Below, piece after piece: positions 1,043 through 52,991 of a stretch of 64,000 nucleotides of DNA; position 1 is the stretch's first letter, and each line of letters opens with the position of its first letter. Both the position numbers and the translations under genes were made by a program. A model generated the notes under the pieces. It ran no database searches, was not told the origin of the DNA, and saw nothing but the letters and a program-made list of their open reading frames with translations. The stretch comes from Dehalococcoidia bacterium (GTDB lineage Bacteria; Chloroflexota; Dehalococcoidia; Lucifugimonadales; JADFKI01), in assembly GCA_965225795.1 (NCBI GenBank), contig OZ245324.1, positions 568,944-632,943 on the forward strand. The letters run 5' to 3'.

Positions 1043-1494
1043 CCCACCTCCCGAAGTTTCTGTAACTCATGCGGTGAGTACCAATTTCGGTTGAGAGCAG
1101 TTTTGATTCGACCGGACACGCCGGTGCAGATCAGGTGCGTCAACAGCCCGGCTCGTTATAGTTGCCGCAGCACATGCTGAGCGTCCTGATCTTGCGCCAG
1201 TTGTTCGTAGCCACGAGGATCAGAACTTTTTGCCACGGCAATCCGCTGCCGGGTATGTTCGTAAATGGCGACCACGGATGGCTTTCGTCATCTGTGCCGT
1301 TGTCATGCTTATGCTGACACATACTTATACAACACCGTGCTCCCGAAAGTATGGATGCTGAAGCAATGGAAGCCTAGCAGTCCCAAGTCTAGCCGATTCC
1401 GGTGGATGCTACCAACCCTTGCCGCTCGTGTTAAGATGTTCTGCAAACAAGGATCAATGGCTCAGACAATTCAGGTTCAGACAAGGAGAGCTTC

Positions 1495-18181: not shown

Positions 18182-18351
18182 CGTAGCATGGGATTCTACC
18201 CAGATTTCGCTTTAGCACTGTACTTCTGAATCCACTCCTTGATTTCCCCAAGGCGGTGTTTATAATCCGTGATTATTATCTGGTGTCTGATATAGTTACG
18301 GAATTGCAATTATTTGATATCTTATAAACTTCCGATATCTGCTTGGATTTT

Positions 18352-20721
18352 ATGAAGCGCCTGAACTACATACATCTCGCCGCTTTCGTTGTTGTGGCAA
18401 CGTACTTCATTGCGGCGTGTTCGAATGATGCGCCTACGCCCGAGGTTCTCCCATCTCCTAGTAGCTCCGTTGCAGGTGAAAAATCTCTAATTCACACTCC
18501 GACTCCCTTAATTGGGGAACAATATGCAGCGGCCGATGTGACTCCATCAGAGCAATCTGATTGCAGTGTGGGATTAGTACTCAGGCTGCATGAGAGTTGC
18601 ACATATCCCGGCACTTCCGACGAGTTCTGGATCGACGCTTCTGGGTTCGGGCATTTTCTTTTCCTTACGGCAAGTGCATCAATCAATGCGCAGAACGCGA
18701 ATATCAACAATCATCCGTATGACTTCGCCGCAAGAAAGCAAAACGACGGCACCTGGATAATTGAAGTGGCGAGTGTCCCATCCGACTCTGTGAAAGTGTC
18801 GGACATTATCGTCGCTGTCCAGAATGCGCCGACACCAGTGGATACGCCTTCCGAAGCTAAATCCCAAATAACTTTGGCAACTCCGGAGCCGGCCGTCATT
18901 TTAGCCACACCCGCCCCAACGCAGGCGCCCTTAGTTCTTATGCGGCCAAAACCGCCTATAAATGCGTCTGTTGTTACTCCCATCGCAACTCCAGAGGCCA
19001 CACATTCGTCTCCTACTTCTGTTCCCACGGTTGTTCCCACAGCCATGCAGGCAATTGTGCCTTCGCCAACGCCAACGGTCAGAAGTACCATTGCAGCCCG
19101 TCCTCCAATTGTCTCAACATCAGTTTCTACACCATTGTCTGTTATGGCGATACCGGGTATGAACAATCCACCTCGAGTCGCAATTGGCGTTGGGGATCAA
19201 ATCGTTCCGGTGCGTGAAACCCTTGTGATGGATGTTTCAAGTGCCTTCACGGATCCAGATGGTGAAAAAGTCGAACGGTATAGTGTCATCCTCAGCAACA
19301 CTACAGTTGCTCACGGAAGAGTTAATTCGGTTACAGGAGAACTGGAGCTCACGGGTCAAAAGGTAGGTTCGTCTTGGGTTACACTCAGGGCTTGCGACGC
19401 CTTAACCTGTACTAGATTGGGTGACTTAATCTTCACCCTGACTGTCGCTCCGCCGCCAAACCGTCCGCCTCAGGCGGTAAGGATCATCGGAGAACGGTCA
19501 GTGAGCGTAGGCGAAACGATTTCCGTTGCTGTTTCTCCTGCATTCTGGGATTTAGAGGACGATCACATTGTCAGCTACGATTTCAGCCTTGATGACCCAG
19601 CATTGGCGACTGGAACTGTGGACGTATCGAGAGGTAGCATTTTATTTCAGGGTACACAGGTCGGCACGACTTCAGTGTCAGTTAGTGCATGTGATAGTGA
19701 AGGATGCAGTGGCAATGATCTGGGTCTGCAATTCGCACTCACTGTCTTGCCGCCGCCTAACCGTCCACCTGAAGTCATTGGCGATATTCCTGACCAAGCA
19801 ATTCATAAAGGTGAGACTATCGCTCTGGATATTTCTTCCTTGTTCAGCGACCCTGATGGAGACCTAATTCAAGATTACGGGTTTTTGCAAACAGATAGGA
19901 GCGTGGCCGCCGGCGCTATCGAGTCAACGACCGGCAGAATGACGCTTAGGGGCGCAAAAGAGGGTACAACTCTTGTTGGCGTAAACGCGAGCGACGGCAG
20001 ACTTACCAGCATGGGCACGAATGTCACATTCCGAGTGACTGTTACCGAACCGCCAAGAAATCCCCCTCAAGTGGTAAGTGCGATTTCCGACCAAATTGTG
20101 GACCTTGACGACTCACTCGATGTGTTTGTCGCGGACGCATTCAATTCACCAAGCCCATATCGCATAATACGATACGATTTTCTCCTAAGAGATCCAGAAG
20201 TGGGAGCTGAAAGCGAAATTTCCAGGGATGGAATACTGACGCTGTCTGGCTCTGAGGAGGGCAAGAGTTGGGTTTCTGTGAGGGCCTGTAGTTACCTGGG
20301 CTGCAGTAACTTTGCCGACCTATCCTTTGTTCTAATTGTCACCGACTCAGACAAAGAGCCTAATCACATTCCTGAGGTTGTGGGTGCGCTTCTCGACCGC
20401 AGCGTGAGCGTCGGGCAAACGGTCACAATGGATGTGTCCAAGGCGTTTGATGACCCGGATGACGAACCAATAGTGGATTACAAATATAAACTTAGCAATC
20501 CTTACATGGCGATTGGAAGCAGCATCACTGATACAGGCATATTAACATTGCGAGGCACGAACATGGGTACGACTACAGTTTCCATAAGTGCCTGCGACGA
20601 TGAAAATGAGTGTAGTGACCCAGACGATATGAACTTCACCTTGACAGTCGAAGCTGCCCTGAGCCGGAATCAAGGGACTGCAGAAAGTGAGACGAACCCA
20701 AGGCCGCTGGCCGTCAACTGA
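18352..20721 (+). CDS. Large secreted lipoprotein with five ~100-aa cadherin-like/Ig-like repeats.
   Basis: It has a lipobox (FIAAC) and a P/T/S-rich linker. Five repeats are each bounded by PPPNRPP-type linkers and contain F.DPDGD..Y and AC....C motifs. The start was moved to ATG 18352. Confidence 0.75.
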   Translation: MKRLNYIHLAAFVVVATYFIAACSNDAPTPEVLPSPSSSVAGEKSLIHTPTPLIGEQYAAADVTPSEQSDCSVGLVLRLHESCTYPGTSDEFWIDASGFGHFLFLTASASINAQNANINNHPYDFAARKQNDGTWIIEVASVPSDSVKVSDIIVAVQNAPTPVDTPSEAKSQITLATPEPAVILATPAPTQAPLVLMRPKPPINASVVTPIATPEATHSSPTSVPTVVPTAMQAIVPSPTPTVRSTIAARPPIVSTSVSTPLSVMAIPGMNNPPRVAIGVGDQIVPVRETLVMDVSSAFTDPDGEKVERYSVILSNTTVAHGRVNSVTGELELTGQKVGSSWVTLRACDALTCTRLGDLIFTLTVAPPPNRPPQAVRIIGERSVSVGETISVAVSPAFWDLEDDHIVSYDFSLDDPALATGTVDVSRGSILFQGTQVGTTSVSVSACDSEGCSGNDLGLQFALTVLPPPNRPPEVIGDIPDQAIHKGETIALDISSLFSDPDGDLIQDYGFLQTDRSVAAGAIESTTGRMTLRGAKEGTTLVGVNASDGRLTSMGTNVTFRVTVTEPPRNPPQVVSAISDQIVDLDDSLDVFVADAFNSPSPYRIIRYDFLLRDPEVGAESEISRDGILTLSGSEEGKSWVSVRACSYLGCSNFADLSFVLIVTDSDKEPNHIPEVVGALLDRSVSVGQTVTMDVSKAFDDPDDEPIVDYKYKLSNPYMAIGSSITDTGILTLRGTNMGTTTVSISACDDENECSDPDDMNFTLTVEAALSRNQGTAESETNPRPLAVN

Positions 20722-23700: not shown

Positions 23701-24499
23701 ATGGTCGAATCTGTTCACTGCCCAGCGAGCAGTTAATTCCCACACTTAGCAGAGGGATGTGTGACACCGAAGCGTAAAATGCCTCCACGGTTTGTCCTGA
23801 TAAATTACGCCCGCTCATGTCAACTGCTGTGAAGGAGGCCATTACCGGCACGCGCGCGCCAATGTCATCGAACACTCTGTCTATGGCAAATAGCGCGGCT
23901 TTGGCGTTAAGCGTGTCGAAAACCGTCTCCACCAAGAGGATGTCGACTCCACCATCGAGCAAGCCTCTCACAGCTTCCGAATACGCCTCGACAATTTCGT
24001 CAAAACTGATATCGCGGTATCCTGGGTCATCCACAGCAGGAGACAGAGAGAGGGTCTTATTGGTTGGGCCGATACTGCCTGCCACGAACCGAGGTTTCTC
24101 CTGGTTGCGCAGTGTGTATTCGTCAGCGATTACTCGGGCGAGTCGAGCGCCTTCACGATTTATGTCGTGGACAGAGTTTTCAAGGCCGAATTCCGATAGC
24201 CCGAAGCGTGTTGCCGTGAATGTGTTAGTTGTGAGGATGTCCGCTCCAGCGTCTAAGTATTGTCGCTGGATGTTGCGAATGAGATCGGGCTGCGTAAGCG
24301 AAAGCACATCAGCACAGCCTCTGAGGTCGCTCTCGTGAGCGGCGAAACGCTCACCTCTGAACTCGCTTTCAGGCAGTTGTAGCGTCTGAATCATTACGCC
24401 CCATGCGCCGTCCAAGACCATCACTCGGCGCTTGAGAATGCGCTCGATCTCGGCGGTGCGATCAATAATGGGGGGTGCATGGGAGGTAGAGTTGGTCAT
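20759..24499 (-). CDS. metH: Cobalamin-dependent methionine synthase, full length.
   Basis: 1246 aa with Hcy-binding, pterin-binding, B12-binding ([11 protein letters not shown]) and AdoMet-activation modules, all recognisable. Confidence 0.95.
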
Positions 24500-24622
24500 A
24501 CGTGTATCCGTTTCAATCTGTCAATTGTCATAGCGCAGTTGAAAATACAGCGTTTCCTCTCTGTTGAAGAAGGAAACGCTGTTGATTCAAGAGGGCAGCT
24601 TAAAATTGGTAATTGAATGTAT

Positions 24623-25465
24623 CTAAATGATGAGAGGCGTGCCCTCGCGGTTCGCCCACTCGCCCATGGAACCGTCGTAGTTTCGCGCGCGGTCATAGCC
24701 AAGAAGCTTAAGTACGAAAACTCCGTGCGCCGCACGGATGCCACCCTGTCAATAAGTTATGATTTCCTTATCCGGCGTCGCTCCCACTTCTTCGAGCATC
24801 GCCCTAAGTTCATCAGCCGGCTTGATGGTCTGATGGCTGTCGTCGGTGATGAAATTCAGCCATTCGAGGTGTACCGCTCCCGGTATGCGTCCCGCCCGCG
24901 CGTTGCCTCGAGAATTGCTGCCGTCCCATTCGCCATCGGAGCGCACATCTAGGAACACGACGTCATCATTACCCACGTTGGCGACGCCGTGGTCAAGAGT
25001 ACATACCAGGTCAGGGTTCGGCTGAGGTGTAAATGTAACTTCTGAAGTGGTCGTCGTACTAATGGAAGTGGGGCGTCCTTCGTCGTACCATTTCTTCCAA
25101 CCGCCGTTGAGCACCTTGACATTGGTATGACCATGGTAGTTCAGCACCCACCAGAGGCGCGTTGACCACAGTGCGCCGTTGCTGTCATACGCTACGACTA
25201 GGTGGTCGTCGCCAATGCCCATTCGCTCCATCACTTCCTTCATAGTGTCGGGTGGAGCGACTAATGGATAGCCACGAGGATCGTCATCATAACCCGGCTC
25301 TTTGATGTAGTGATGAACCGGTATGCCGACGGCATTCCTGATATGCGCACGTCCGTAGGCGTCATACGGGTCACAATCAACTATTCGAATCGTCGGGTCG
25401 TCAAGCCTGGCTTCGAGCCAGTCTGCTGCGACCAGAATATCCGGATTTGCGTATCCCTGATTCAT
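24623..25465 (-). CDS. Two-domain rhodanese (thiosulfate/3-mercaptopyruvate sulfurtransferase-like) with selenocysteine at the catalytic position; in-frame TGA at 24749-24751.
   Basis: Track ORF 24749-25465 stops at TGA. The same frame continues as QGGIRAAHGVFVLKLLGYDRARNYDGSMGEWANREGTPLII to TAG 24623-24625. This completes the active-site loop (U-Q-G-G-I-R) and the canonical rhodanese C-terminus. Confidence 0.75.
24722..24738 (-). promoter_or_regulatory. Candidate bacterial SECIS hairpin for the rhodanese gene.
   Basis: The mRNA UCCGUGC-GGC-GCACGGA starts 11 nt after the UGA. Confidence 0.4.
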
Positions 25466-25549
25466 TGCTTCCTTCCCCTTGCAATTGAAATGGTTGGCTT
25501 TGTATCCATAGTCTCACCCTACACCAGACTTGCACTACGGGCAAGAGCA

Positions 25550-26845: not shown

Positions 26846-27078
26846 CGGTCACTCATGGTAATGGGGTTAATTTGTCTGCTCATTGCGACAAAATTATACT
26901 TTCTCACGCTCAATACTGCAAAAGATTTCAGTAAACAGGGAACATTATCCCATACCTTCCCATGAGCCGTTAACGAGAACTTAATTTGCCACTACACTCC
27001 CGGCTGCATAGAATGAATATATTCCCTCTACCAGTTACCAGATTCAAAATTGGCAGTCCATTATGAGAGGTGCTTCAT

Positions 27079-29817
27079 ATGACCAACTCACTCCAACGGT
27101 TGCAGGCACTTGGGCAGTCCGTGTGGTTCGATAACATTCGCAGAGGCTTTATCAGGTCGGGTGAACTGCAGCGTTTGGTAGATTTGGGAGTGAGTGGTCT
27201 GACTTCCAACCCATCCATATTCGAAAAGGCGATTACCGGGAGCAGCGACTACGACGAGGCACTACTTGACCTTGCGCTCGCTGGCAACAGTGCGACGGAA
27301 ATTTTCGAGAGTCTTGCCATCGAGGATATACGTGATGCAGCAGACCTTCTTCTTCCCGTGTACGAGCGTACCGCAGGTGCGGACGGATTTGCTTCCATAG
27401 AAGTCAGCCCGCACCTCGCCAACGACACCAAGGGCACTGTCGCCGAGGCACAGAGACTCTACGCAACTCTGCAGCGCCCGAATGTGATGATAAAGGTTCC
27501 TGCTACTCCTGCGGGAATACCAGCCATCCGGCAGCTCATCAGTGATGGCATCAACGTCAACGTTACTCTTATATTCTCGCTGGATGCCTATGCTGAGGTG
27601 CGTGAGGCGTATGTCAGCGGGCTGGAAGAACTGGAATTAGCAGGAGGAGATCCGTCTTGTGTGTCGTCGGTAGCGTCGTTTTTCGTGAGTCGTATAGATG
27701 CATCCGTTGAAGGCAAGTTGGACGAGCTTATTGCTTCTGGAAATAGCGAATTGAAAGGACTGATGGGCAAGGCCGCTATCGCCAATGCCAAAATGGCGTA
27801 CCGTGACTTTGTCCAAACCTTCAGCAACGACAGGTTCACGGCGTTGGAAACCGCAGGGGCACGTGTACAGCGCCCGCTGTGGGCGAGTACCAGCACGAAG
27901 AACCCAGAGTATAGCGATGTTTTGTATGTCGATGAACTAATTGGGCCAAACACTGTAAATACCCTACCGGATGTTACGCTCCACGCGTTCCTCGAGCACG
28001 GCAACCCGAGAAGAACAATCGACCGTGACCTTGATGAAGCTGAACGGACCATGCAGGCACTTGAGGATGCCGGCATAAGCATGTCGCAGGTAACCAGCAA
28101 GCTTCTCGAAGATGGCGTTAAGGCATTTGCAGACTCGTATGACGCACTCATTGCCAATATCGAGGACAAACGAGCCCGTCTCGTCGCGCGGCAGTCGGGA
28201 AATAGCACTCGGCTCGGCGATTACGAAGAATCGGTAACTGCAATTCTTGCGGATCTTGAAAGCAGGCAAGTGCCTCGACGGATTTGGGACCTTGACCATA
28301 CCGTCTGGAACGCTAATCCAGCTGAAATTACCGACAGACTTGGCTGGCTTACGGTAGCCCGTGATATGCGCCAGTATGTTGAGGAATTGCAGGCGTTTGC
28401 GGAGGAAGTCAAAAGCGATGGATTCCGGCATGTCGTGCTACTGGGGATGGGCGGCAGCAGCCTCGGCGCATTGGCGCTTGATAATCTCTTTGGAAGCGCT
28501 GACGGCTATCCCGACCTCACTGTGCTCGACACCACCGTGCCCGCCACGATCAGCGCCGTATCCGATTCATTGGACTGCGAAAAGACGCTCTTTATTGTGG
28601 CGTCCAAGTCCGGAACGACGATCGAGCCTAATGTTCTGTACAAGCGCTTCAGGGCACTTGTTGAGCGGGAGGTAGGGGGCGCAGATGCGGGCAATCATTT
28701 CGTTGCGATTTGCGACGCTGGCACATTACTTGAGCGGCTAGCCAGGGAAGACGGCTTTCGTCGAATCTTTACGAATCCGCCCAATTTAGGAGGGCGTTAT
28801 TCTGTGCAGTCGCTTTTCGGCTTGGTGCCTGCAGCTTTTCTTGGGATTGACATTGGCAAATTCCTGGATTCCGTGGAGACCATGAGCTCTGCCTGTGGAG
28901 CAACTGTTCCAGCGAACGATAACCCTGCTGCTCGGCTTGGTGCCTTGATAGCTTCGCTGTCGGAACAAGGGCGCGACAAACTGACAATCGTGACTACCGA
29001 ATCACTCCAGAATTTCGCTCTCTGGGTCGAGCAACTGCTCGCAGAGAGCACCGGTAAAGGGGGAAAGGGGATCATCCCAGTCGCAAACGAACCACATTGC
29101 AGCCCCAGTGACCTCGGTAGGGACAGGCTGTTCGTTTATGTGCGCCTAGACGAGGATGACACAGATGTAACCGATAGATACATCAAAAGTGTGGAGGATG
29201 AGGGTATACCGGTTGTCAGGTTTGATCTCATTGGCGGATACAACATTGGCGCTGAATTCTTCCGGTGGGAATTTGCTACCGCAGTCGCCGGAAGTTTAAT
29301 GGGCATTCATCCGTTCGACCAGCCGAATGTCCAGCAGGCCAAGGACAAGACTTCAGAGTTGCTTGCGGAGTACGAGAGTTCAGGACGATCACCTGCGCTC
29401 AACACCGTGAGTTCGTTTACGGAACTGATGTCACATGTCAAAGAGGGGGACTACTTAGCGATTACGGCCTTTGCTAAACCAACGGCGCAAGTGGAATCGG
29501 CTTTGGCCGATCTGCGGCAAAATGTCACGGGCAAGTGGGGTGTTGCCACAACTCTTGGCTATGGTCCGCGTTACTTGCACTCGACAGGTCAACTTCATAA
29601 AGGTGGAGCGGACTCTGGGCTGTTCTTACAACTTACGCAGATAGAAGATGCCGATGTTACAATACCGGGTGAGAGGTTCACTTTTGGAGTATTGGCAGCG
29701 GCACAGGCTAAAGGCGATCTGGACGCACTAGCCGCTAAAGGACGCAATGTTGCTCGTATTAATCTTGGCGCTGACGCGGTACAGACGGTAAAGACGTTAG
29801 CCAATAGCCTCAAATAA
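27079..29817 (+). CDS. Bifunctional transaldolase / glucose-6-phosphate isomerase.
   Basis: The N-terminal transaldolase part has SVWFDNIRR, LTSNPSIFEKA and MIKVPAT. The C-terminal PGI part has GMGGSSLG and SKSGTTIEP. ATG 27079 follows a GAGAGGTG RBS. Confidence 0.9.
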   Translation: MTNSLQRLQALGQSVWFDNIRRGFIRSGELQRLVDLGVSGLTSNPSIFEKAITGSSDYDEALLDLALAGNSATEIFESLAIEDIRDAADLLLPVYERTAGADGFASIEVSPHLANDTKGTVAEAQRLYATLQRPNVMIKVPATPAGIPAIRQLISDGINVNVTLIFSLDAYAEVREAYVSGLEELELAGGDPSCVSSVASFFVSRIDASVEGKLDELIASGNSELKGLMGKAAIANAKMAYRDFVQTFSNDRFTALETAGARVQRPLWASTSTKNPEYSDVLYVDELIGPNTVNTLPDVTLHAFLEHGNPRRTIDRDLDEAERTMQALEDAGISMSQVTSKLLEDGVKAFADSYDALIANIEDKRARLVARQSGNSTRLGDYEESVTAILADLESRQVPRRIWDLDHTVWNANPAEITDRLGWLTVARDMRQYVEELQAFAEEVKSDGFRHVVLLGMGGSSLGALALDNLFGSADGYPDLTVLDTTVPATISAVSDSLDCEKTLFIVASKSGTTIEPNVLYKRFRALVEREVGGADAGNHFVAICDAGTLLERLAREDGFRRIFTNPPNLGGRYSVQSLFGLVPAAFLGIDIGKFLDSVETMSSACGATVPANDNPAARLGALIASLSEQGRDKLTIVTTESLQNFALWVEQLLAESTGKGGKGIIPVANEPHCSPSDLGRDRLFVYVRLDEDDTDVTDRYIKSVEDEGIPVVRFDLIGGYNIGAEFFRWEFATAVAGSLMGIHPFDQPNVQQAKDKTSELLAEYESSGRSPALNTVSSFTELMSHVKEGDYLAITAFAKPTAQVESALADLRQNVTGKWGVATTLGYGPRYLHSTGQLHKGGADSGLFLQLTQIEDADVTIPGERFTFGVLAAAQAKGDLDALAAKGRNVARINLGADAVQTVKTLANSLK

Positions 29818-29850
29818 TAGCGGCGAATTTCATTGACTGGAGGCGACAAA

Positions 29851-30759
29851 TTGGAACTGGGAATGATTGGCTTGGGCCGAATGGGCGGGAACATGACCCA
29901 GCGTCTCCTCGATGGCGGCCATCATATTGTCGCCTATGATCCCGATGAACAGGCCCGGTTGTCGGTCGTGAACGCCGGCGCAATCGAGGCAAGTTCCATT
30001 CATGAACTTGTTTCGCTCCTGTCGCCTCCTCGCGCGGTTTGGGTGATGGTACCCGCCGGTGATGTTACGGACGAAACAATAAGTACTCTCTCCGCTGAGT
30101 TGTCTGTGGGAGACACCATAATCGACGGCGGCAACTCCAATTATAGAGACACGATTCGCCGTTCAGCTGATGTCGGGGATCGGGGAATCACGATGTTGGA
30201 TGTAGGCACGAGCGGAGGTGTCTGGGGACTGACAGAAGGTTACAGCCTTATGATCGGTGGTGATGCTGAGGCGTATTCACGTCTTGAACCTATATTCCAG
30301 ACACTTGCGCCTGGCGCGAGTATAGGATATGGGCACGTGGGACCGTCTGGCGCGGGGCACTTCGTGAAAATGGTCCATAACGGCATAGAATACGGAATGA
30401 TGCAGGCCTTCGCAGAGGGCTTTGAACTCATGGAAGCCAAGCATGACCTGGAACTCGACCTCGCGCAGATTGCCCACATTTGGCGCTACGGCAGTGTAGT
30501 TCGGTCATGGTTGCTTGATCTAACAGCAGCGGCTCTGGATGAGGATGGCAGTCTGGAAGGTATCCAGGCGTATGTGGAGGACTCTGGCGAGGGACGCTGG
30601 ACAGTAGAAGAATCGATCGATCTGGCTGTTCCGATTCCAGTTATTGTTGCGTCATTGCAAGCGCGATTCCGCTCGAGACAGGACTCCCCCTTCGGAGCAA
30701 AACTGTTGGCAGCAATGCGAAATCAATTCGGCGGGCATAGTGTCAGAAAGTCGGAATGA
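29851..30759 (+). CDS. gnd: 6-phosphogluconate dehydrogenase, decarboxylating (short ~300-aa type).
   Basis: [11 protein letters not shown] Rossmann motif and [12 protein letters not shown]. The TTG start at 29851 lies 6 nt after GGAGG. Confidence 0.85.
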
Positions 30760-32222
30760 TGTCTCTGGAAAGCACAAGCATTGTCATATTTGGCGGCACA
30801 GGTGACCTTGCCCAGCGTAAGCTAGTGCCAGCACTTTTCGAGCTTGCTTACCGTGGGCGTGCCCCTGAAAATCTCCGAATCGTCTGCTTTGCGCGCTCCG
30901 ACTTCACTAGCGAGTCGTACCGCGAATTCATGTGGAATAAGGTAAGTGAGTTCCGCGACCTCGCAGCGCACAAAGATGCCTGGGGGGAATTTGCCCGTCG
31001 CATCCACTACATACGTGGCGATTTGAGCGACCCCGAGGGACTTGGAGTACTAAAGAAGGGGCTTCAAGAGTTGGATGGCGGCGCCGGAGCTCCCTCAAAC
31101 TGGCTTTTCTATCTGTCGATCGCCCCATGGCTCTTTGAGCCTGCTCTTCGCAATATGAACGTTCACGGTCTTGCGGACGAGTCAACAGGATGGCGCCGAG
31201 TAGTTATAGAGAAGCCATTTGGTAGTGATCTCGCGTCTGCTACGGAACTGGACAATCTCGTTGGGCAGGTGTTCGATGAGAGTCAGGTTTATCGTATCGA
31301 TCATTACCTTGGTAAGCATATGGTGCAAAATCTCCTGGTTTTTCGTTTTGCAAACGCCATCTTTGAACCTATATGGAATCGTAACTATATCGACAACGTG
31401 CAGATTACAGTCGCCGAATCCATAGCGGTCGAAGACAGGGGAAGCTATTACAATGAGTCGGGCGTCGTGCGAGACATGGTGCAAAACCACATGCTGCAAC
31501 TGCTCACTCTGGTAGCAATGGAGCCTCCCAACATTGCTGATTCTGAATCGCTTCGGAACAAAAAAGTCGAAGTACTGCAGGCTATTCGCAGGAATGGCGG
31601 CGCTGAAATGGCGCGAAACGCCGTGCGAGGCCAATACAATGGCTATCTGGCGGAGCGAGGCGTACCAGAAGGGTCCATCACACCCACATACGCGGCTTTG
31701 CGGCTCTTCGTGGACAATTGGCGTTGGCGGGATGTGCCATTTTACCTGCGAACCGGCAAAGCAATGGCAGAGAAGGTATCAGAAATTGTAATAGAGTTTC
31801 AGAAGCCGCCACACACGATGTTTCCTATGCCTTCGGGCGAAGCCATTCCGTCTAATCTTCTTCGCCTGAGCCTGCAGCCTGACGAGGGCATCCACCTTGG
31901 TTTTCAGACTAAGAGCCCGGACGTTGATATTGCCTCAATGGAACGGACGAATTTGGAATTCCATTATAGGTCCGCTTTCAGAGACCTCTCGATTCCCGAA
32001 GATTACGAGCGACTGCTCCAAGACGCCCTACTTGGCGACGCCAGCTTATTCATTCGCAATGACCATATTGAAGAAGCCTGGAAGATTGTCGATCCTCTCA
32101 TAGACGCCTGGACCGACCTGGATATTTCTCCTCTGCATATCTACGCCTGCGGCAGTTGGGGTCCTGACGCGTCTGATGCCTTGCTTGCGCAGGATGGACG
32201 CAGATGGCGGCGCTACAACTAG
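30756..32222 (+). CDS. zwf: Glucose-6-phosphate 1-dehydrogenase.
   Basis: [11 protein letters not shown] and the RIDHYLGK active-site motif. It has an ATGA overlap with the gnd stop. Confidence 0.95.
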
Positions 32223-32444: not shown

Positions 32445-33875
32445 GTGGGGAGTAACTTGCGGCACAGAATTGCACGGACTTGGTTTTTTGCGGCGCTCGC
32501 CGTGATGCTCTTGATGATGGGTTCTTTGGCTGCTGCGTGCGGCGCTAGCGTACCCGGGACGGAGCTCGAACAGGTGGCACCGATTCAGAACCCCGCGGCT
32601 GATCCCGAATCTAGCAATATTCCAAACTCAGAAGTGTCATCACCTACGGTTCCACCTGCTGAGCAATCGGAGGCCTCGCGTGCTGCTGTACCTGCGGCAA
32701 CACATACAGCTAAGTCACTCGTGGCGGCGCAAGTTCCGGCGTTCACAGCAACTCAAAACGTGGATATGAGTGGAGAAAATGGCAGCATCACGCCCGATCG
32801 AGATTACGAAGGGGCCTTGAGCGCAGCAAGACTAAGCACCAGAGGTTGGGATACCGATTTCAGGTTTCACACTGTACCTTACAGCGAGATAAGATCTGTC
32901 ATTCCTCGCGACAACATCCCGTCGATAGACAAACCCTCCTTTATCGCTCCCTCGGAGGCATCGGCGTGGCTGAGTGATGTTGAGCCTGTGGTATCTCTTG
33001 AAATCAGCGGAGATGTCCGCGCGTACCCGCTCCAGATTCTGACCTGGCACGAAATAGTCAACGACACCGTTGGGGATGTTCCTGTGGCAGTAACATTTTG
33101 CCCGTTGTGCAATTCGGCGATTGCGTTCGACCGGCGTCTGGATGGAAAAGAGCTTGAATTTGGAGTGTCGGGGAATCTTCGCAACTCCGACCTGATAATG
33201 TACGACCGGGAGACGCATTCATGGTGGCAGCAATTCACAGGTGAAGGCATAGCAGGGGAGCACGCGGGACGAAGCTTAAACCATCTCCCAGCCTTTATAG
33301 TATCGTTCGCGGATTTTCAGAGAGCTCACCCGAATGGGAAAGTATTGTCGCGAGATACCGGTTACGCACGTCAGTATGGGCGAAATCCATACGCCGGGTA
33401 TGACACGATCGAAGGAAATCCATTCTTGTTCACAGGAGATTTGGATGGCAGGCTCCTTCCCGTCGAGCGTGTCATCGCAGTAACCATTGGGGAAATTGAT
33501 GTGGCATTCCCGCTGAGTATTCTGCAGGAGGAAGGCGTAATAAACTATGAAACTTCCGGGAGCTCGATTACCGTGTTCCACAAGTTTGGAACAACATCCG
33601 CACTTGACGCTGGTTCAATTGCGGACTCTCGAGATGTGGGATCAGCCGGGGTCTTCGATGCCAGTCTAGACGGCCAGGGATTGACATTCAGCATCAAGAA
33701 TGAAGATATCATTGATGACCAGACGGGAAGCAAGTGGGATATCCTGGGCAATGCCGTGGACGGACCGCTTGCAGGAGAGAGGCTCACTCCAATAGTGCAT
33801 GGCAATCATTTCTGGTTTGCCTGGGCTGTGTTTAAGCCCGACACGCTAGTGTATCAGGGCAGGGAAGGCGCATGA
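32445..33875 (+). CDS. Secreted DUF3179-like protein (probable lipoprotein).
   Basis: LAAAC lipobox. IPSIDKPSF, RAYPLQILTWHEIVND and VTFCPLCNSA motifs are typical of DUF3179. Confidence 0.7.
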   Translation: MGSNLRHRIARTWFFAALAVMLLMMGSLAAACGASVPGTELEQVAPIQNPAADPESSNIPNSEVSSPTVPPAEQSEASRAAVPAATHTAKSLVAAQVPAFTATQNVDMSGENGSITPDRDYEGALSAARLSTRGWDTDFRFHTVPYSEIRSVIPRDNIPSIDKPSFIAPSEASAWLSDVEPVVSLEISGDVRAYPLQILTWHEIVNDTVGDVPVAVTFCPLCNSAIAFDRRLDGKELEFGVSGNLRNSDLIMYDRETHSWWQQFTGEGIAGEHAGRSLNHLPAFIVSFADFQRAHPNGKVLSRDTGYARQYGRNPYAGYDTIEGNPFLFTGDLDGRLLPVERVIAVTIGEIDVAFPLSILQEEGVINYETSGSSITVFHKFGTTSALDAGSIADSRDVGSAGVFDASLDGQGLTFSIKNEDIIDDQTGSKWDILGNAVDGPLAGERLTPIVHGNHFWFAWAVFKPDTLVYQGREGA

Positions 33876-33905
33876 ATTCTTAACAATTATGAAAATGAAG
33901 TAAGA

Positions 33906-33944
33906 GGCGCCCGCATTTCATGACATGATGCGCGGACGCCTTTT
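33906..33944 (+). terminator. Rho-independent terminator between convergent genes.
   Basis: An imperfect GC-rich hairpin GGCGCCCGCA..TGCGCGGACGCC is followed by TTTT. Confidence 0.5.
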
Positions 33945-33970
33945 CAAGTCTGAGTCAATTAGCCTCTGGC

Positions 33971-34660
33971 TTAGTTGGCAATGATGTCTTCGAAAAGATC
34001 TGCCCAACTTTCGTAGTCGCCCTTCCCAAAGCCATAGCGGTGCGTAATCGTTCCGTCCCTGCTAATTGCGACTTTAGAAGCCTGGGTATAGATTCTTAGT
34101 GCATCCAGCATGCCTTCGTCCGGATGGGCTACCGGCCAAGGCAATCCCTTGCCTTCCCTGTCGGCCTCCAATTTTTCTAAGCTTTCGGACAGGTCAGTAC
34201 CTACGAGGTAGAATGCGATCTGATCAGTGTAGTTTGCACCGATCTCATCCTGAATGCGCCGCAACTCGACGCGGCAGGTTCCTCACCAGGTAGTGTGGAA
34301 GTAAATGAAGGCAGGCTTGCCTTCATCGAAAATTGCCGCAGATGTGACCCGGCTGCCATCCAGCAGGCTCATGCCGAATTCCGGGACGTGCATTCCAACT
34401 TTGTAGCCGACTTCCACTGGACCGGCTTCTGGCTCGCTCTCTACAGCCTCAATTGCCTTTTGGGGGGCGGAGTCAGCTTGCGCCATTTCCGCGGCCTGTG
34501 TTGGCACCGCCACCAGCTCCGACGCAGGCACAACTTTGGGTGCGGGAGGCACGGAAATGCTCTCAGCGGTCTGAGAGGCGGGTGCCGCGCCGCATCCGAA
34601 CAATATCCCTATCGTCGCTCCAAGTGTCAGCAGAAGGGATAGTGCAAATTTAGTGCTCAT
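33971..34660 (-). CDS. Thioredoxin-fold (TlpA/ResA-like) thiol:disulfide oxidoreductase lipoprotein with a W-U-G-T-C redox motif; in-frame TGA at 34283-34285.
   Basis: Track ORFs 34283-34660 and 33971-34264 share one frame: ..KPAFIYFHTTW-U-GTCRVELRRIQDE.. It has an N-terminal lipobox (LFGCG). Confidence 0.75.
34258..34275 (-). promoter_or_regulatory. Candidate bacterial SECIS hairpin for the thioredoxin-fold gene.
   Basis: The mRNA GCCGC-GUCGAGUU-GCGGC starts 8 nt after the UGA. Confidence 0.35.
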
Positions 34661-34755
34661 TCATACATCTCGCTTGGTGTTGTAGTCCGATTCGGCACAT
34701 TTCCGCTTGTGAGTGGATATGTACTTAGGATACGGCAAGAATTGCTCCAGTACAA

Positions 34756-36117
34756 TCAGCCAACAGTTTGCGGGCGAGCTTCCAGAGTCACTTCAATTTG
34801 GGCGCTATCTCCCCCGTCTCGCACTACGCTCATCGTGACCGTGTCGCCCGGTTTCGTGTTTTCCATCAGGTATATGATCAGGTCGTTCATGCTGACGATA
34901 GCCTGCTCGTCAATGGCCGTTATGACATCGCCTCCGTAACGTATGCTGCCTTCATCTGTCCGCTTGTTCTTGTCGCTGCCGACTAGGCCAGCCTGCTGCG
35001 CGGGGCCTTCTTCTGCAAGAGCAATTACCTGAGCCCCGCGAGTTCCTGCTGGTGCGTTCATCAGCTCTACAGCTTCGGCCCCTATGGTCGTACCGCGGAT
35101 GCCCAGCCATGAGTATGTAAAGGCGCCGTCGCTGATGAGAACGGGTACAATCTGTTTTGCAATGTTAATTGGAATAGCAAAACCGATGCCTGTGTTTGAG
35201 CCAGAGCGCGTGATTATCTGGGCGTCAATTCCGATGACACGCCCTTGCCTGTCCAGCAATGGGCCCCCTGAATTGCCGGGGTTCATTGGTGCATCCGTTT
35301 GTATGACCTTAGGCAATGAGAAGTGGGAATCGCTAGTGCGTATAGTGCGTCCGATGGCGCTGACAATGCCCGTTGTAGTTGAGAATTCCTGCCCAAACGG
35401 GTTGCCAATGGTGATTGCGATCTGCCCGACGCGAATTTCATTGCTGTCCCCAAGAGATACTGGTTTCAGCAACTCCGCGTCGCGTTCAATCTTCAGGACT
35501 GCCAAATCTGAATCTTCGTCCCAACCGATCACCTCGGCCTCAGCGTCACTGCCGTCAGAGAAGACAACCGTTATGCGCTCGGCGTCGACAACGACATGCC
35601 GGTTCGTCACTATGTGCCCCGCGTCGTCCCATACGAATCCTGAGCCCTGTCCGTTTCTGTAGAAGAATTCCTGCTGCGAGCCGCCATCTGGAGGAGACCC
35701 TTGTCCAAATGGAAAAGGAGAAGTGAATCCTGGAATTGAACTGGAGATTTCGACGCGGTTGAGCACGAAGACACTGACGACGGATGGCAGCACATCGTCA
35801 TGTACGTCGCCTATCACGCTTTCATAGGCGGCAACTATTTCGTCGGCGTCTATTTCAAATGCGGGAGGCTGCTTAGGTTCATTCGAAGGTATTCCGTCCA
35901 GCAGCGGCTGCGCGGATGAATTCTCCCCTGCCGGCACCTGCCATGAAGCGCGGGAGGTTTGTACATCTTCAGCGGGGACACTTATGGAATTGGCAGACGA
36001 TGCGCCATAGTTGTCCGTAGATGCCGCGGGCGCACTGCTGCATGCGAGCGTCGCGGCGAGGATTGAAAACAGGCAGGTGAGCGCAGGATACTTCAGACTC
36101 TTTAATCCATGTGTCAT
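34756..36117 (-). CDS. HtrA/DegP-family trypsin-like serine protease with a PDZ domain.
   Basis: TNRHVV (His), DLAVLK (Asp), GNSGGPL (Ser), a C-terminal PDZ domain and an N-terminal signal/lipobox (LAC). Confidence 0.9.
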   Translation of the reverse strand: MTHGLKSLKYPALTCLFSILAATLACSSAPAASTDNYGASSANSISVPAEDVQTSRASWQVPAGENSSAQPLLDGIPSNEPKQPPAFEIDADEIVAAYESVIGDVHDDVLPSVVSVFVLNRVEISSSIPGFTSPFPFGQGSPPDGGSQQEFFYRNGQGSGFVWDDAGHIVTNRHVVVDAERITVVFSDGSDAEAEVIGWDEDSDLAVLKIERDAELLKPVSLGDSNEIRVGQIAITIGNPFGQEFSTTTGIVSAIGRTIRTSDSHFSLPKVIQTDAPMNPGNSGGPLLDRQGRVIGIDAQIITRSGSNTGIGFAIPINIAKQIVPVLISDGAFTYSWLGIRGTTIGAEAVELMNAPAGTRGAQVIALAEEGPAQQAGLVGSDKNKRTDEGSIRYGGDVITAIDEQAIVSMNDLIIYLMENTKPGDTVTMSVVRDGGDSAQIEVTLEARPQTVG

Positions 36118-40929: not shown

Positions 40930-42171
40930 TCATTGGCCCTTGTGAGACTTGAACACACTACTTGCCGCTCCGACACCTGCCCCTGTCGCTACTTCAAACC
41001 CTGCTTCTGGCAAAACGCTTTCCAAAGCGGATAGAAGAGCCAGCACATATTCGGCCTTGCTGGATTCGCCCATCAGCCCTATGCGCCACACATTGCCTGC
41101 AAGTTCGCCCAGCCCACCGCCGATCTCGATGCCGTAGCCCCGTAGCAAGCGTTGTCTCACCTGCATATCGTCAATGCCATCCGGTATTTTCACGACAGTT
41201 ATCTGTGCGAGGCGATACTCAGAGGGCACCACGCATTCAAGGCCGAGTCCTTCTAGTCCGGCGCACAGAGCTTGGGCGTTGAATGTGTGGCGGGTAAAAC
41301 GCTCGGTCAGCCCTTCCGTCAACACCTGACGTAAACCCTGTCGGAGCGCAAGAATCATGCTTACCGGAGCGGTATGGTGATATACGCGCTGGCCTTCCCA
41401 GCCCCAGTAGTTGCCGAGCAAGGCCAAGTCAAGATACCAAGACATAGGCGCTTGCTTGCGTTGTCGCATCGTCTCAAGCGCACGGTCGCTTACGGCAACT
41501 GGCGAAAGTCCCGGCGGACAGCCGAGGCACTTCTGGGTTGCCGAATATGCGTAGTCCGCGTTCCACTCATCAAAGGCTACCTCGTTTCCGCCAAGCGAGG
41601 TTACTGTATCTACCATGAATAAGGCGTCATTCTCTTTGGCAATTCGGGCCAACCCAGCAATCGGTTGGCGCACTCCGGTGGATGTCTCCGCGTGTATTGC
41701 GGTCACCATCTTTACGTTGCTTTGCCTGGCGAGTTCCGCCTCAAGCATCTCTTCGGGGAAGGGACGTCCCCACTCTGCTCGGAGCGGCACTACATTAGCT
41801 CCGACACGGTTCGCCATTTCCACCATACGTTCGCAGAAGAAGCCATATATGCACATCACAACAGTGTCGCCCGGCTCCAGAAGACTGCTTAAGCCTGCTT
41901 CCATGCCAGCCGAACCTGTGCCCGATATAGCCAGAGTATTCGCCGTATCAGTCTGATACACACGTTTCAGGAGTTCCCTGACCTCGTCCATAATCAGCAT
42001 GAAGTCCGGGTCCATGTAGCCTATCATCGGCTGCATCATTGCCTGTAACACACTGGGGCTTACGTTGCTCGGACCCGGACCCAACAATATTCGAGAGGGG
42101 ACTGCCGGCATTGCGGATTCGGGTAATGTGGTTGGCGTCATTCTTTCACCTTGGACACTGGCGCTTGACAT
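40930..42171 (-). CDS. Class V PLP-dependent aminotransferase (serine-pyruvate/alanine-glyoxylate type).
   Basis: 413 aa. LLGPGPSNV N-terminal motif, and SATQKCLG containing the PLP lysine. Confidence 0.85.
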   Translation of the reverse strand: MSSASVQGERMTPTTLPESAMPAVPSRILLGPGPSNVSPSVLQAMMQPMIGYMDPDFMLIMDEVRELLKRVYQTDTANTLAISGTGSAGMEAGLSSLLEPGDTVVMCIYGFFCERMVEMANRVGANVVPLRAEWGRPFPEEMLEAELARQSNVKMVTAIHAETSTGVRQPIAGLARIAKENDALFMVDTVTSLGGNEVAFDEWNADYAYSATQKCLGCPPGLSPVAVSDRALETMRQRKQAPMSWYLDLALLGNYWGWEGQRVYHHTAPVSMILALRQGLRQVLTEGLTERFTRHTFNAQALCAGLEGLGLECVVPSEYRLAQITVVKIPDGIDDMQVRQRLLRGYGIEIGGGLGELAGNVWRIGLMGESSKAEYVLALLSALESVLPEAGFEVATGAGVGAASSVFKSHKGQ

Positions 42172-52861: not shown

Positions 52862-52991
52862 CGTCCTAGTGTGCTTTGGCAGGCTCAGACCGAATATTTA
52901 GGTTTACATGGATGAAAGGGCAAGGATGGGAATGAGCTGGCTAGTGGAGTGATATACTGTGTGCGGATTTTCCATTTCTAGGCGGTGGGAA

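What the first reader, a model, noticed from the sequence alone, without database searches (positions are those of the whole stretch)
24623..25465. Rhodanese with selenocysteine in place of the catalytic cysteine, next to metH
The track ORF ends ..PDKEIITY at TGA 24749-24751. The same frame then continues QGGIRAAHGVFVLKLLGYDRARNYDGSMGEWANREGTPLII to a TAG. This supplies exactly the missing rhodanese active-site loop (C-x-x-G-x-R becomes U-Q-G-G-I-R) and the conserved C-terminal ..LGY..V..YDGS..EW.. segment. A 7-bp hairpin (UCCGUGC-GGC-GCACGGA) begins 11 nt after the UGA. A Sec at the persulfide-carrying position would form a selenosulfide or perselenide intermediate. The gene lies 123 nt upstream of metH on the same strand. 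The 82-aa track ORF 24496-24744 is an out-of-frame artefact over this C-terminus.
Basis: partly seen in the sequence, partly recalled or inferred. Interest (0 to 1): 0.8.

Follow-up and report, generated by a model that had tools for sequence, protein, structure and literature searches.

The report
Selenocysteine rhodanese gene, misread as truncated
This gene encodes a two-domain rhodanese-type sulfurtransferase whose catalytic cysteine is replaced by a UGA-encoded selenocysteine; the reading is correct, but this predicted selenoprotein family has been catalogued since 2005 and is still untested biochemically.

Summary
ORF 24749..25465 (-) stops at TGA exactly at the catalytic-Cys column of two-domain rhodaneses. 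The same frame continues for 41 codons (QGGIRAAHG…GSMGEWANR…) to a TAG at 24623.

This is not a pseudogene. All 80 best genome relatives (58-96% identity, several phyla), seven more distant relatives and 119 of 120 metagenome motif matches carry TGA there, followed by an open, conserved frame.

The hairpin UCCGUGC-GGC-GCACGGA (24722..24738) is not thermodynamically unusual on its own. Across 80 sequences, however, synonymous variation collapses to about 0 bits only at its six codons. One stem pair shows a compensatory C-G to A-U change. One Cys relative lacks the hairpin, and two others keep it as a "fossil".

A second gene in the window (33971..34660, thioredoxin-fold W-U-G-T-C) shows the same UGA signature. 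Fourteen other ORFs end normally at TGA.

The metH adjacency occurs only in the nine closest relatives, and a strong hairpin lies between the two genes.

Sec-containing "rhodanese-related sulfurtransferase (COG2897/cd01449, UxxG)" was reported from the Sargasso Sea (2005), Olavius symbionts (2007) and GOS (2008). It is listed in 2022 and 2026 reviews as predicted only. Sec machinery could not be checked, because none lies in the window.

The parts
24623..25465 (-). Complete coding sequence of the selenoprotein: 280 codons (Sec at codon 239) plus the TAG stop. It is a two-domain rhodanese-type sulfurtransferase.
   Evidence: Translation. Pfam PF00581 with two stretches, E 7.6e-37. PDB 1uar_A E 2e-45, aligned over residues 4-278.
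25082..25426 (-). N-terminal, non-catalytic rhodanese domain (residues ~14-128). Asp94 (..VVAYDSNG..) occupies the column where a catalytic Cys would be.
   Evidence: Best Pfam stretch covers residues 14-128. Alignments; D94 is invariant in 23 sequences.
24632..25006 (-). C-terminal catalytic rhodanese domain (residues ~154-278). It spans the UGA.
   Evidence: PDB alignments run through the UGA column to residue 278.
24749..24751 (-). In-frame UGA (codon 239), read as selenocysteine at the catalytic-Cys position.
   Evidence: Aligned to the catalytic Cys of 1uar, 3hwi and 3aax. TGA in 80/80 genome loci, in 7 loci from more divergent clusters and in 119/120 metagenome motif matches. Cys (TGC/TGT) in P0114, P0121 and L108.
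24734..24751 (-). Active-site loop U-Q-G-G-I-R, the six-residue C-x-x-x-x-R cradle of rhodaneses.
   Evidence: Invariant UQGGIR in the 80 loci. It aligns with CRIAER/CRIGER of solved enzymes.
24722..24738 (-). SECIS-like hairpin: 7-bp stem UCCGUGC/GCACGGA with apical loop GGC. It is embedded in codons I-R-A-A-H-G. The loop starts 17 nt after the UGA.
   Evidence: Hairpin found. Third-position entropy is 0-0.64 bits at these six codons, against ~1-1.9 bits at other 4-fold-degenerate codons. 96% of cells are paired, with a compensatory C-G to A-U change in three sequences. The hairpin is lost in Cys form P0121.
25468..25480 (-). Purine-rich Shine-Dalgarno-like stretch AAGGGGAAGGAAG, 2 nt upstream of the ATG.
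   Evidence: Read directly from the sequence. Inference only.
24542..24582 (-). Strong intergenic hairpin (12+3 bp) followed by AUUUU, between the rhodanese stop and the metH start. Candidate intrinsic terminator or metH leader element.
   Evidence: strand folding gives -30.6 kcal/mol for the 111-nt stretch, z = -5.19, 0 of 200 shuffles as stable. The consensus terminator scan did not flag it.
24496..24744 (-). 82-aa ORF in another frame over the true C-terminus and the intergenic spacer. Not a gene.
   Evidence: The frame is open for at least 42 codons in 18/81 relatives, median 14 codons. The rhodanese frame is open for 40-46 codons in 81/81.

Best explanation
The gene at 24623..25465 (-) encodes a 280-residue, two-domain rhodanese-type sulfurtransferase. 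Codon 239, a UGA, is translated as selenocysteine at the position that carries the persulfide in Cys enzymes.

Recoding is directed in the bacterial manner. A small stem-loop (UCCGUGC-GGC-GCACGGA, G-containing apical loop) lies 10 nt after the UGA, inside the coding sequence for I-R-A-A-H-G. It would recruit SelB-GTP-Sec-tRNA(Sec) to the ribosome. Ordinary gene callers stop at the UGA and report a 238-aa fragment.

Shown here:
- the position of the UGA;
- conservation of the TGA and of the downstream frame;
- nucleotide-level constraint on the hairpin;
- a second UGA gene of the same kind in the window.

Inferred:
- that Sec rather than another residue is inserted;
- that the enzyme works like a rhodanese. 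The selenolate would attack a sulfane-sulfur donor such as thiosulfate or 3-mercaptopyruvate, form an enzyme-Se-S(-) intermediate held by the Q-G-G-I-R cradle, and pass the sulfur to a thiophilic acceptor.

The gene is a member of the already catalogued, biochemically uncharacterised selenoprotein family 'rhodanese-related sulfurtransferase (COG2897/cd01449, UxxG)'. The host is a Dehalococcoidia (Chloroflexota) genome.
For: 1. UGA at the catalytic column. PDB alignments place the TGA on the catalytic Cys and run on to residue 278. Pfam finds two PF00581 stretches.

2. Truncation at the same spot in relatives. 118 of the best 120 protein clusters are 236-243 aa (one is 328 aa with an N-terminal extension), cover 84-85% of the query, and those aligned end in ..TY.

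3. TGA and frame are conserved. All 80 genome loci have TGA followed by 40-46 in-frame codons encoding QGGIRAAHG...GSMGEWANR..TPL. The stop is never TAA or TAG. Their record titles name Dehalococcoidia/SAR202, Entotheonella, Binatia, Thermodesulfobacteriota, Gemmatimonadetes and 'Deltaproteobacteria'. 12 of the best 150 50%-identity representatives are truncated likewise. The 7 with DNA all have TGA plus the frame. Of 120 metagenome contigs matching the motif with TGA, TGC or TGT allowed, 119 have TGA.

4. The hairpin is constrained at the RNA level. Third-position entropy is 0-0.3 bits at ATC, CGT, GCG, GCG and CAC, and 0.64 bits at GGA. Other 4-fold codons in the same gene show ~1-1.9 bits. 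96.2% of cells are paired. The C-G pair becomes A-U in Entotheonella (L017, L020) and L084, at the cost of a Gly-to-Val change. In L088, where His becomes Asn and breaks the stem, a different 7-bp hairpin follows 7 nt downstream.

5. Cys forms as controls. P0121 (TGT) has GCA GCC CTA GTA and no hairpin. P0114 and L108 (TGC) keep the exact hairpin as a fossil.

6. TGA is an ordinary stop in 14 other long ORFs of the window.

7. A second gene (33971..34660) has TGA at the first Cys of a thioredoxin-fold WCxxC motif. All 27 homologue clusters are N-terminal fragments of 125-136 aa. The downstream frame and hairpin are conserved in relatives at 51-57% identity.

8. The family is published as a predicted selenoprotein: PMC1088965, PMC1976440, PMC2398784 and PMC13188914.
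Against: No tRNA-Sec, SelA, SelB or SelD was found in the 64-kb window, and no tRNA-Sec was found in the 60 related loci scanned. The rest of the genome could not be read.

The hairpin's stability in the single sequence is no better than shuffled controls.

Covariation is thin. Four of 7 pairs never vary and only one pair shows a two-sided change. Part of the nucleotide conservation could reflect relatedness.

No selenium incorporation or enzyme activity has been measured for any member of this family. The reviews list it as 'predicted'.

The best curated equivalog (3-mercaptopyruvate sulfurtransferase, NF008557) scores 115.7 against a cut-off of 250. The substrate is therefore unknown.
Confidence: 0.88

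Rival explanations
1. The UGA is read through by a standard amino acid (Cys, Trp or Gly). This would happen by near-cognate or hairpin-stimulated read-through, or by Cys loaded through the Sec pathway. The full-length protein would then be an ordinary Cys (or inactive) rhodanese, not a selenoenzyme.
For: The Sec machinery was not seen in the window or in the flanks of relatives. The conserved frame and hairpin prove recoding of some kind. They do not prove which residue is inserted.
Against: The UGA sits exactly at a catalytic Cys. It has a small G-containing stem-loop immediately 3', which is the bacterial Sec signature. A second gene in the window has UGA at the first Cys of a CxxC motif with its own hairpin. 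The carriers span several phyla, and 14 other genes in this window use TGA as a stop. The family was classified as a selenoprotein by independent pipelines.
Confidence: 0.06
2. The gene is a pseudogene, or a truly truncated inactive rhodanese ending at the TGA. The downstream similarity would be decaying remnant sequence.
For: Gene callers report a 238-aa product. Public records carry it as a 239-aa 'hypothetical protein'.
Against: TGA is present in 80/80 loci down to 58% identity and in 119/120 metagenome hits. It is never TAA or TAG. The downstream frame stays open for 40-48 codons. Amino acids are conserved there while synonymous sites vary freely outside the hairpin, which indicates purifying selection on the protein.
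Confidence: 0.02
3. The hairpin after the TGA is an intrinsic terminator or attenuator, not a recoding signal.
For: The consensus scan lists it as terminator-like: a 7-bp stem followed by GTTTTCGTAC.
Against: The 'U-tract' is the Val-Phe codons, and it varies (GUG UUC, GUA UUC, GUC UUC, CUC UUC) in relatives. Conserved coding sequence continues through and beyond it. One terminator-like match is what shuffled sequence also gives (mean 1.0).
Confidence: 0.01

Closest known systems
[quoted passage not shown]
   Same: Same fold and domain class: two-domain COG2897-type, PF00581. Sec replaces the catalytic Cys. The motif is U-x-x-G (here U-Q-G-G). A bacterial SECIS-like stem-loop with a G in a small apical loop lies directly after the UGA. 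The origin is marine or symbiont metagenomes, and Cys homologues greatly outnumber Sec forms.
   Different: No difference was demonstrated. The published example sequences (AACY01016424, MCY3690685.1) could not be retrieved for a direct comparison. The papers counted 3 (Sargasso), 3 (Olavius) and 8+1 (GOS) sequences. Here more than 80 genome loci and more than 120 metagenome contigs were found, dominated by Dehalococcoidia/SAR202, Binatia and Entotheonella.
Cys-containing two-domain thiosulfate/3-mercaptopyruvate sulfurtransferases (T. thermophilus rhodanese 1uar; M. tuberculosis 3hwi/3aax/3hzu; A. vinelandii RhdA 1e0c; E. coli SseA 1urh; bovine rhodanese 1rhd)
   Same: Full-length alignment with E 2e-45 to 2e-25. 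The N-terminal domain is inactive. The catalytic domain has a six-residue loop starting at the nucleophile and ending in Arg. The double-displacement mechanism through an enzyme-bound sulfane sulfur is established for these enzymes (PMC9369223).
   Different: The nucleophile is Sec, not Cys. The loop is QGGIR rather than RIAER, RIGER, RKGVT or GSGVT. The score for the 3-MST equivalog model is far below its cut-off. Substrate and acceptor are unknown.
Bacterial SECIS elements (E. coli fdhF/fdnG type, recognised by SelB)
   Same: A stem-loop inside the ORF immediately 3' of the UGA, with a small apical loop containing G. The UGA-to-loop spacing is 17 nt. By my recollection this lies within the 16-37 nt of the bSECISearch consensus; it was not checked against a paper here.
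   Different: The loop is very short (3 nt) and the stem only 7 bp. There is no bulged U as in fdhF. No Rfam family matched at gathering threshold. The element is dual-coded with the enzyme's active-site loop, so its sequence is almost frozen across phyla.
Selenium-charged Cys rhodanese (Ogasawara, Lacourciere and Stadtman 2001, as cited in PMC9369223)
   Same: It links the rhodanese active site to selenium chemistry. The Cys enzyme binds Se 1:1 as a perselenide and can supply Se for selenophosphate synthesis.
   Different: There the selenium is a cargo on a Cys thiol. Here the selenium is built into the polypeptide as Sec.

Membership tests
Two-domain rhodanese-type sulfurtransferase (COG2897 / TST-MST class) | Two tandem rhodanese homology domains (PF00581) | tested here: met
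   Pfam PF00581, two stretches, 126.3 bits against a cut-off of 22.2. End-to-end alignment to 1uar, 3hwi, 1e0c and 1urh.
Two-domain rhodanese-type sulfurtransferase (COG2897 / TST-MST class) | N-terminal domain lacks the catalytic Cys | tested here: met
   ..VVAYDSNG.. with invariant Asp94 at the corresponding column.
Two-domain rhodanese-type sulfurtransferase (COG2897 / TST-MST class) | C-terminal domain with a six-residue active-site loop that begins with the catalytic Cys | tested here: inconclusive
   Loop length and position are met (U-Q-G-G-I-R aligned to C-R-I-A-E-R). The nucleophile codon is UGA, not a Cys codon, so the feature is met only if the UGA is read as Sec or Cys.
Two-domain rhodanese-type sulfurtransferase (COG2897 / TST-MST class) | Thiosulfate or 3-mercaptopyruvate sulfurtransferase activity | not testable with these tools
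The NCBIfam 3-MST equivalog scores 115.7 bits against a cut-off of 250, so the gene is not assignable to SseA/3-MST.
Bacterial selenoprotein gene (SelB/SECIS-dependent UGA recoding) | In-frame UGA aligned with Cys in homologues | tested here: met
   Catalytic Cys in PDB homologues. TGC or TGT in P0114, P0121 and L108.
Bacterial selenoprotein gene (SelB/SECIS-dependent UGA recoding) | Reading frame and protein sequence conserved downstream of the UGA across species | tested here: met
   81/81 sequences are open for 40-46 codons, with conserved residues and free synonymous sites. Also seen in distant clusters and in metagenomes.
Bacterial selenoprotein gene (SelB/SECIS-dependent UGA recoding) | Stem-loop immediately 3' of the UGA with a small G-containing apical loop, conserved as RNA | tested here: met
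   Hairpin at 24722..24738. Synonymous entropy collapses at its codons. 96% paired, with one compensatory pair. Loops are GGC, GUC or UGC. Weak points: the single-sequence energy is not significant and covariation is sparse.
Bacterial selenoprotein gene (SelB/SECIS-dependent UGA recoding) | tRNA-Sec (selC), SelA, SelB and SelD present in the same genome | not testable with these tools
   None lies in the 64-kb window, and no tRNA-Sec lies in the 60 related loci scanned. The rest of the genome is not available. Indirect support: a second UGA gene in the window.
Bacterial selenoprotein gene (SelB/SECIS-dependent UGA recoding) | Selenium incorporated into the protein | not testable with these tools
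   Needs 75Se labelling or mass spectrometry.
Published Sec-rhodanese family (COG2897/cd01449, 'form 4', UxxG) | COG2897/cd01449-type domain with Sec in a UxxG motif at the catalytic site | tested here: met
   Two-domain PF00581 architecture with U-Q-G-G.
Published Sec-rhodanese family (COG2897/cd01449, 'form 4', UxxG) | Sequence similarity to the published examples (AACY01016424; MCY3690685.1) | not tested
   Those sequences are not held in any tool here. A look-up of ten NCBI-derived clusters gave only MCI0438648.1, a 'hypothetical protein'.

The most novel reading that the evidence does not exclude
The Sec-rhodanese may not be merely a faster sulfurtransferase. It could be a dedicated chalcogen carrier or redox enzyme in these marine, sponge-associated and soil lineages. 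For example, it could carry selenium as an enzyme-Se-Se(-) species to SelD. Alternatively it could cycle through a selenenylsulfide with one of the conserved cysteines (Cys31 or Cys155, invariant in a 23-sequence sample).

Its SECIS is dual-coded with the active-site loop (I-R-A-A-H-G). RNA structure and catalytic-loop sequence may therefore have co-evolved and locked each other, which would explain why the loop is invariant in Sec forms but variable in Cys forms.
Probability: 0.15. Interest if true: 0.6.

Novelty: new member of a known kind. Interest (0 to 1): 0.3.

Why it matters
The practical result is an annotation correction. The gene, and hundreds of homologues in public genomes and metagenomes, are recorded as 238-240-aa fragments or "hypothetical proteins". 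An out-of-frame 82-aa ORF is called over the true C-terminus here.

Scientifically, the case shows that this long-listed but little-noticed selenoprotein family is abundant in Dehalococcoidia/SAR202, Binatia and Entotheonella. It also gives a clean example of a SECIS element overlapping the codons of an active-site loop, with fossil copies left in Cys revertants.

No member has been characterised. It remains open whether Sec at a persulfide-carrying position changes the chemistry (Se-S intermediate, selenium trafficking). The sequences collected here make that question directly testable. It is not a new kind of system.

Tried and rejected
1. Folding the hairpin alone. z-scores of -0.01 and -0.40 show that thermodynamics gives no support, so I used comparative evidence instead.

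2. Rfam at gathering threshold over the window found only a tRNA-Asn, and no SECIS or riboswitch family.

3. ARAGORN found no tRNA-Sec in the window or in 60 related loci.

4. Pfam scans of 40 window ORFs found no SelA, SelB or SelD. A class-V aminotransferase at 40930..42171 is not evidence either way.

5. A lower SECIS stem (GGC with GUU, bulged A) suggested by the MFE fold was rejected, because its columns vary without covariation.

6. A conserved TAT codon before the UGA looked like a context signal in the 80 genome loci (80/80). It is TAC, TAT, CAC or CAT in the wider metagenome set, so it is a lineage effect.

7. A functional link to metH was rejected. Adjacency occurs in only 9 of 80 loci, and a strong hairpin lies between the genes. 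No universally conserved neighbour exists. An ASST-like gene follows in 25 loci.

8. NCBIfam has no dedicated model that passes its cut-off.

9. An attempt to tie the family to the review's example accession through a cluster look-up failed.

10. Other TGA-terminated ORFs with open downstream frames (18343..20721, 34756..36117, 51821..52156, 52959..53693) were seen. They were not pursued, because nothing suggested recoding. The last simply runs into the next gene.
Full report
**1. The observation**

On the minus strand an ORF starts at ATG 25465, preceded by AAGGGGAAGGAAG. It runs for 238 codons to TGA at 24749-24751 (…PDKEIITY). The same frame then reads QGGIRAAHGVFVLKLLGYDRARNYDGSMGEWANREGTPLII and ends at TAG 24623-24625.

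The read-through product has two rhodanese domains (PF00581, E 7.6e-37). It aligns end to end with solved two-domain sulfurtransferases. The best match is Thermus thermophilus rhodanese 1uar (E 2e-45), followed by the M. tuberculosis enzymes, A. vinelandii RhdA, bovine rhodanese and E. coli SseA.

In those alignments the TGA falls on the catalytic cysteine. The 41 downstream codons align with the active-site loop and the C-terminal …LGY..V.NYDGS..EW… segment, up to residue 278 of 280.

The hairpin UCCGUGC-GGC-GCACGGA is at 24738..24722 and starts at the 11th nucleotide after the UGA. The metH ATG is 123 nt after the TAG.

**2. Is it more than chance, or a broken gene?**

Protein databases give the first clue. 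A search with the full-length sequence (U replaced by C) gave 1,727 hits at E ≤ 1e-20. Of the best 120 clusters, 118 cover only 84-85% of the query. In a 23-sequence alignment the truncated ones all end in …TY immediately before the catalytic column, down to 63% identity.

DNA settles the matter. A scan of one genome per species found 579 relatives. All 80 best loci (58-96% identity) have TGA at that column, followed by 40-46 in-frame codons encoding QGGIRAAHG…NYDGSMGEWANR..TPL. The stop is never TAA or TAG. These loci come from MAGs labelled Dehalococcoidia, SAR202, Chloroflexota, Candidatus Entotheonella, Candidatus Binatia, Thermodesulfobacteriota, Gemmatimonadetes and "Deltaproteobacteria".

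An exhaustive search of 50%-identity representatives used the Cys-form relative P0114 as query. Twelve of the best 150 clusters were truncated at the same place. For the seven loci whose DNA could be fetched (six clusters), all have TGA plus the conserved frame.

A motif scan of metagenome contigs allowed TGA, TGC or TGT. The frame continued for 40-48 codons wherever enough sequence was present.

A pseudogene or a truly truncated domain cannot explain this pattern.

**3. The hairpin**

In this sequence alone, the hairpin is no more stable than dinucleotide shuffles (z = -0.01 and -0.40). The consensus scanner even lists it as "terminator-like". The evidence that it is functional is comparative.

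*Synonymous-site constraint.* I built a codon alignment of 80 distinct sequences and measured third-position entropy at conserved residues.

| Codons | Third-position entropy |
|---|---|
| 4-fold codons along the gene | ~1.0-1.9 bits |
| 2-fold codons along the gene | 0.4-1.0 bits |
| +4 to +8 (ATC 77/80, CGT 79/80, GCG 80/80, GCG 80/80, CAC 80/80) | 0-0.3 bits |
| +9 (GGA 68/77) | 0.64 bits |
| Gly codons +2 and +3, before the hairpin | 1.64 and 1.15 bits |
| Val codon +10, after the hairpin | 1.85 bits |

*Base pairing.* On 45 distinct sequences, 96.2% of cells pair. Four of the seven pairs never vary. One pair (C14-G28) becomes A-U in Entotheonella (L017, L020) and in a distant marine sequence (L084), at the price of a Gly-to-Val replacement. 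It becomes U-G once, and isolated mismatches occur. Covariation support is real but thin.

*Variants and controls.*
- In L088 a His-to-Asn change destroys the stem, and a different 7-bp hairpin (GGCGAAC-AGUCU-GUUCGCC) sits 7 nt further on.
- The Cys form P0121 (TGT) has GCA GCC CTA GTA at the corresponding codons and no hairpin.
- The Cys forms P0114 and L108 (TGC) retain the exact hairpin. This is best read as a fossil SECIS after a recent Sec-to-Cys reversion.

*Geometry.* The apical loop always contains a G (GGC, GUC or UGC). It starts 17 nt after the UGA. [quoted passage not shown] The 16-37 nt spacing window is my recollection of the bSECISearch consensus and was not checked here.

*Dual coding.* The element lies within the codons of the active-site loop. 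The peptide IRAAHG is invariant in the 80 Sec-form genome loci. The Cys forms and solved structures examined read IAERSS, IGERSS, IRAAQA, IRSSHT or VRAALV.

**4. Does this organism decode UGA as Sec?**

The window has no tRNA-Sec. Pfam scans of 40 ORFs found no SelA, SelB or SelD. No tRNA-Sec lies near the gene in the 60 related loci scanned. The machinery is therefore unverified, which is the main gap.

Two indirect points support Sec decoding.

First, TGA is not reassigned. Of 55 long ORFs, 16 end in TGA, and 14 of them show no sign of continuing.

Second, a separate gene at 33971..34660 (-) shows the same signature.
- It encodes a lipoprotein-like thioredoxin-fold protein (AhpC/TSA, Redoxin).
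- It reads …FIYFHTTW-TGA-GTCRVELRR…, that is W-U-x-x-C.
- All 27 homologue clusters are 125-136-aa N-terminal fragments.
- In relatives at 51-57% identity the TGA, the downstream frame to the stop and a stem-loop (GCGUCG-AGUUG-CGGCGC, with a U-G to U-A change) are all conserved.
- The HtrA / this gene / DUF3179 gene order is also conserved.

**5. Context**

MetH, the upstream MFS_3 transporter and a transaldolase-PGI fusion are 91-97% identical to those of two Dehalococcoidia MAGs (L001, L002). The window therefore comes from a close relative in the Chloroflexota.

The metH adjacency is present in only 9 of 80 loci, all among the ten closest. The MFS gene is upstream in 14.

Between the rhodanese TAG and the metH ATG lies a very stable hairpin (24547..24582) followed by AUUUU (z = -5.19). 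It looks like a terminator or a metH leader.

I find no basis for a functional metH link.

In 25 other loci an arylsulfotransferase-like (ASST, PF05935) gene follows directly on the same strand. This is the only recurrent partner, and it is not in this window's neighbourhood.

The 82-aa ORF over the C-terminus is not conserved.

**6. Mechanism**

*Shown:* the position of the UGA, the conserved frame, the constrained hairpin and the rhodanese architecture. That architecture comprises an inactive N-terminal domain (Asp94 at the pseudo-catalytic column) and a six-residue loop U-Q-G-G-I-R.

*Inferred from established rhodanese chemistry* (double displacement through an enzyme persulfide held by the loop's backbone amides and basic residues; PMC9369223):
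- The selenolate attacks a sulfane-sulfur donor.
- It forms an enzyme-Se-S(-) species.
- It hands the sulfur to an acceptor.

The substrate is unknown, because the 3-MST equivalog model scores well below its cut-off.

A role in selenium trafficking is conceivable. Cys rhodanese binds Se as a perselenide in vitro. This was not tested here.

**7. Comparison with what is known, and verdict**

Sec-containing rhodanese-related sulfurtransferases of the COG2897/cd01449 type have been reported several times.

| Source | Count or listing |
|---|---|
| Sargasso Sea, PMC1088965 | 3 sequences, predicted SECIS shown |
| Olavius symbionts, PMC1976440 | "Sulfurtransferase COG2897", 3 genes |
| GOS, PMC2398784 | 8 Sec against 3,367 Cys for cd01449; 1 against 8 for COG2897 |

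The 2022 review says that most such selenoproteins were predicted by bioinformatics and that their functions are not clear.

The gene here matches every descriptor of that family that I could test. I could not align it to the published example sequences.

The finding is an instance of a known, predicted selenoprotein family, not a new kind of system.

The incremental points are:
- the size and taxonomic spread of the family;
- the near-frozen SECIS dual-coded with the active-site loop;
- the fossil SECIS in Cys revertants;
- systematic mis-annotation in public records, for example MCI0438648.1, a 239-aa "hypothetical protein".

Interest 0.3.

Noticed in passing
window 33971..34660 (-); TGA at 34283-34285: A second likely selenoprotein gene. 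It is lipoprotein-like with a thioredoxin fold (AhpC/TSA, Redoxin) and the motif W-U-G-T-C. It is split by gene callers into pieces of 125 aa and 97 aa. All 27 homologue clusters are N-terminal fragments. The TGA, the downstream frame and a stem-loop (GCGUCG-AGUUG-CGGCGC) are conserved in relatives at 51-57% identity.
   Followed up: yes
window 32445..36117; L091, L092: The gene order HtrA-like protease (34756..36117, -), Sec thioredoxin-fold gene, DUF3179 protein (32445..33875, +) is conserved in two distant relatives. DUF3179 is itself listed as a selenoprotein family (UxxC/T) in the 2026 review. The copy here is an uninterrupted 476-aa ORF.
   Followed up: partly
window 24542..24582 (-): A very stable hairpin (12+3 bp, then AUUUU) lies in the 123-nt spacer between the rhodanese stop and metH. 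The 111-nt stretch folds at -30.6 kcal/mol, z = -5.19. It may be a terminator or a metH leader. No Rfam riboswitch matched at gathering threshold.
   Followed up: partly
L081 (P0114, TGC at locus ~980) and L108: Cys-form relatives retain the exact SECIS hairpin sequence ATCCGTGCGGCGCACGG after TGC. These look like fossil SECIS elements left by recent Sec-to-Cys reversion. Another Cys form (L213, P0121, TGT) has lost the hairpin.
   Followed up: partly
L088 (gene 650..1351, then downstream): A divergent Sec-form in which His becomes Asn and breaks the usual stem. A different 7-bp hairpin, GGCGAAC-AGUCU-GUUCGCC, lies 7 nt further 3'. This may be SECIS replacement.
   Followed up: no
L027-L076 subset (25 loci), e.g. 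L072 6885..8018: In 25 of 80 relatives an arylsulfotransferase-like beta-propeller gene (PF05935/PF14269) follows the Sec-rhodanese directly on the same strand. It is the only recurrent neighbour, and it is absent next to the gene in this window.
   Followed up: partly
window 27070..32222 (+): A pentose-phosphate cluster: a 915-aa transaldolase/phosphoglucose-isomerase fusion, then 6-phosphogluconate dehydrogenase and glucose-6-phosphate dehydrogenase.
   Followed up: no
window 24722..24738 (-): The consensus terminator scan reports the SECIS hairpin as the only 'terminator-like' site in the region. Such scans can mislabel recoding signals.
   Followed up: yes
alignment A1 (window residues Cys31 and Cys155): Two cysteines are invariant in the 23-sequence alignment of 21 Sec-form fragments, the window protein and the Cys form P0114. 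They are VDC31D in domain 1 and C155 in the interdomain region. Among the more divergent sequences, Cys31 is missing in several, for example P0129. Whether either lies near Sec239 could not be measured.
   Followed up: no
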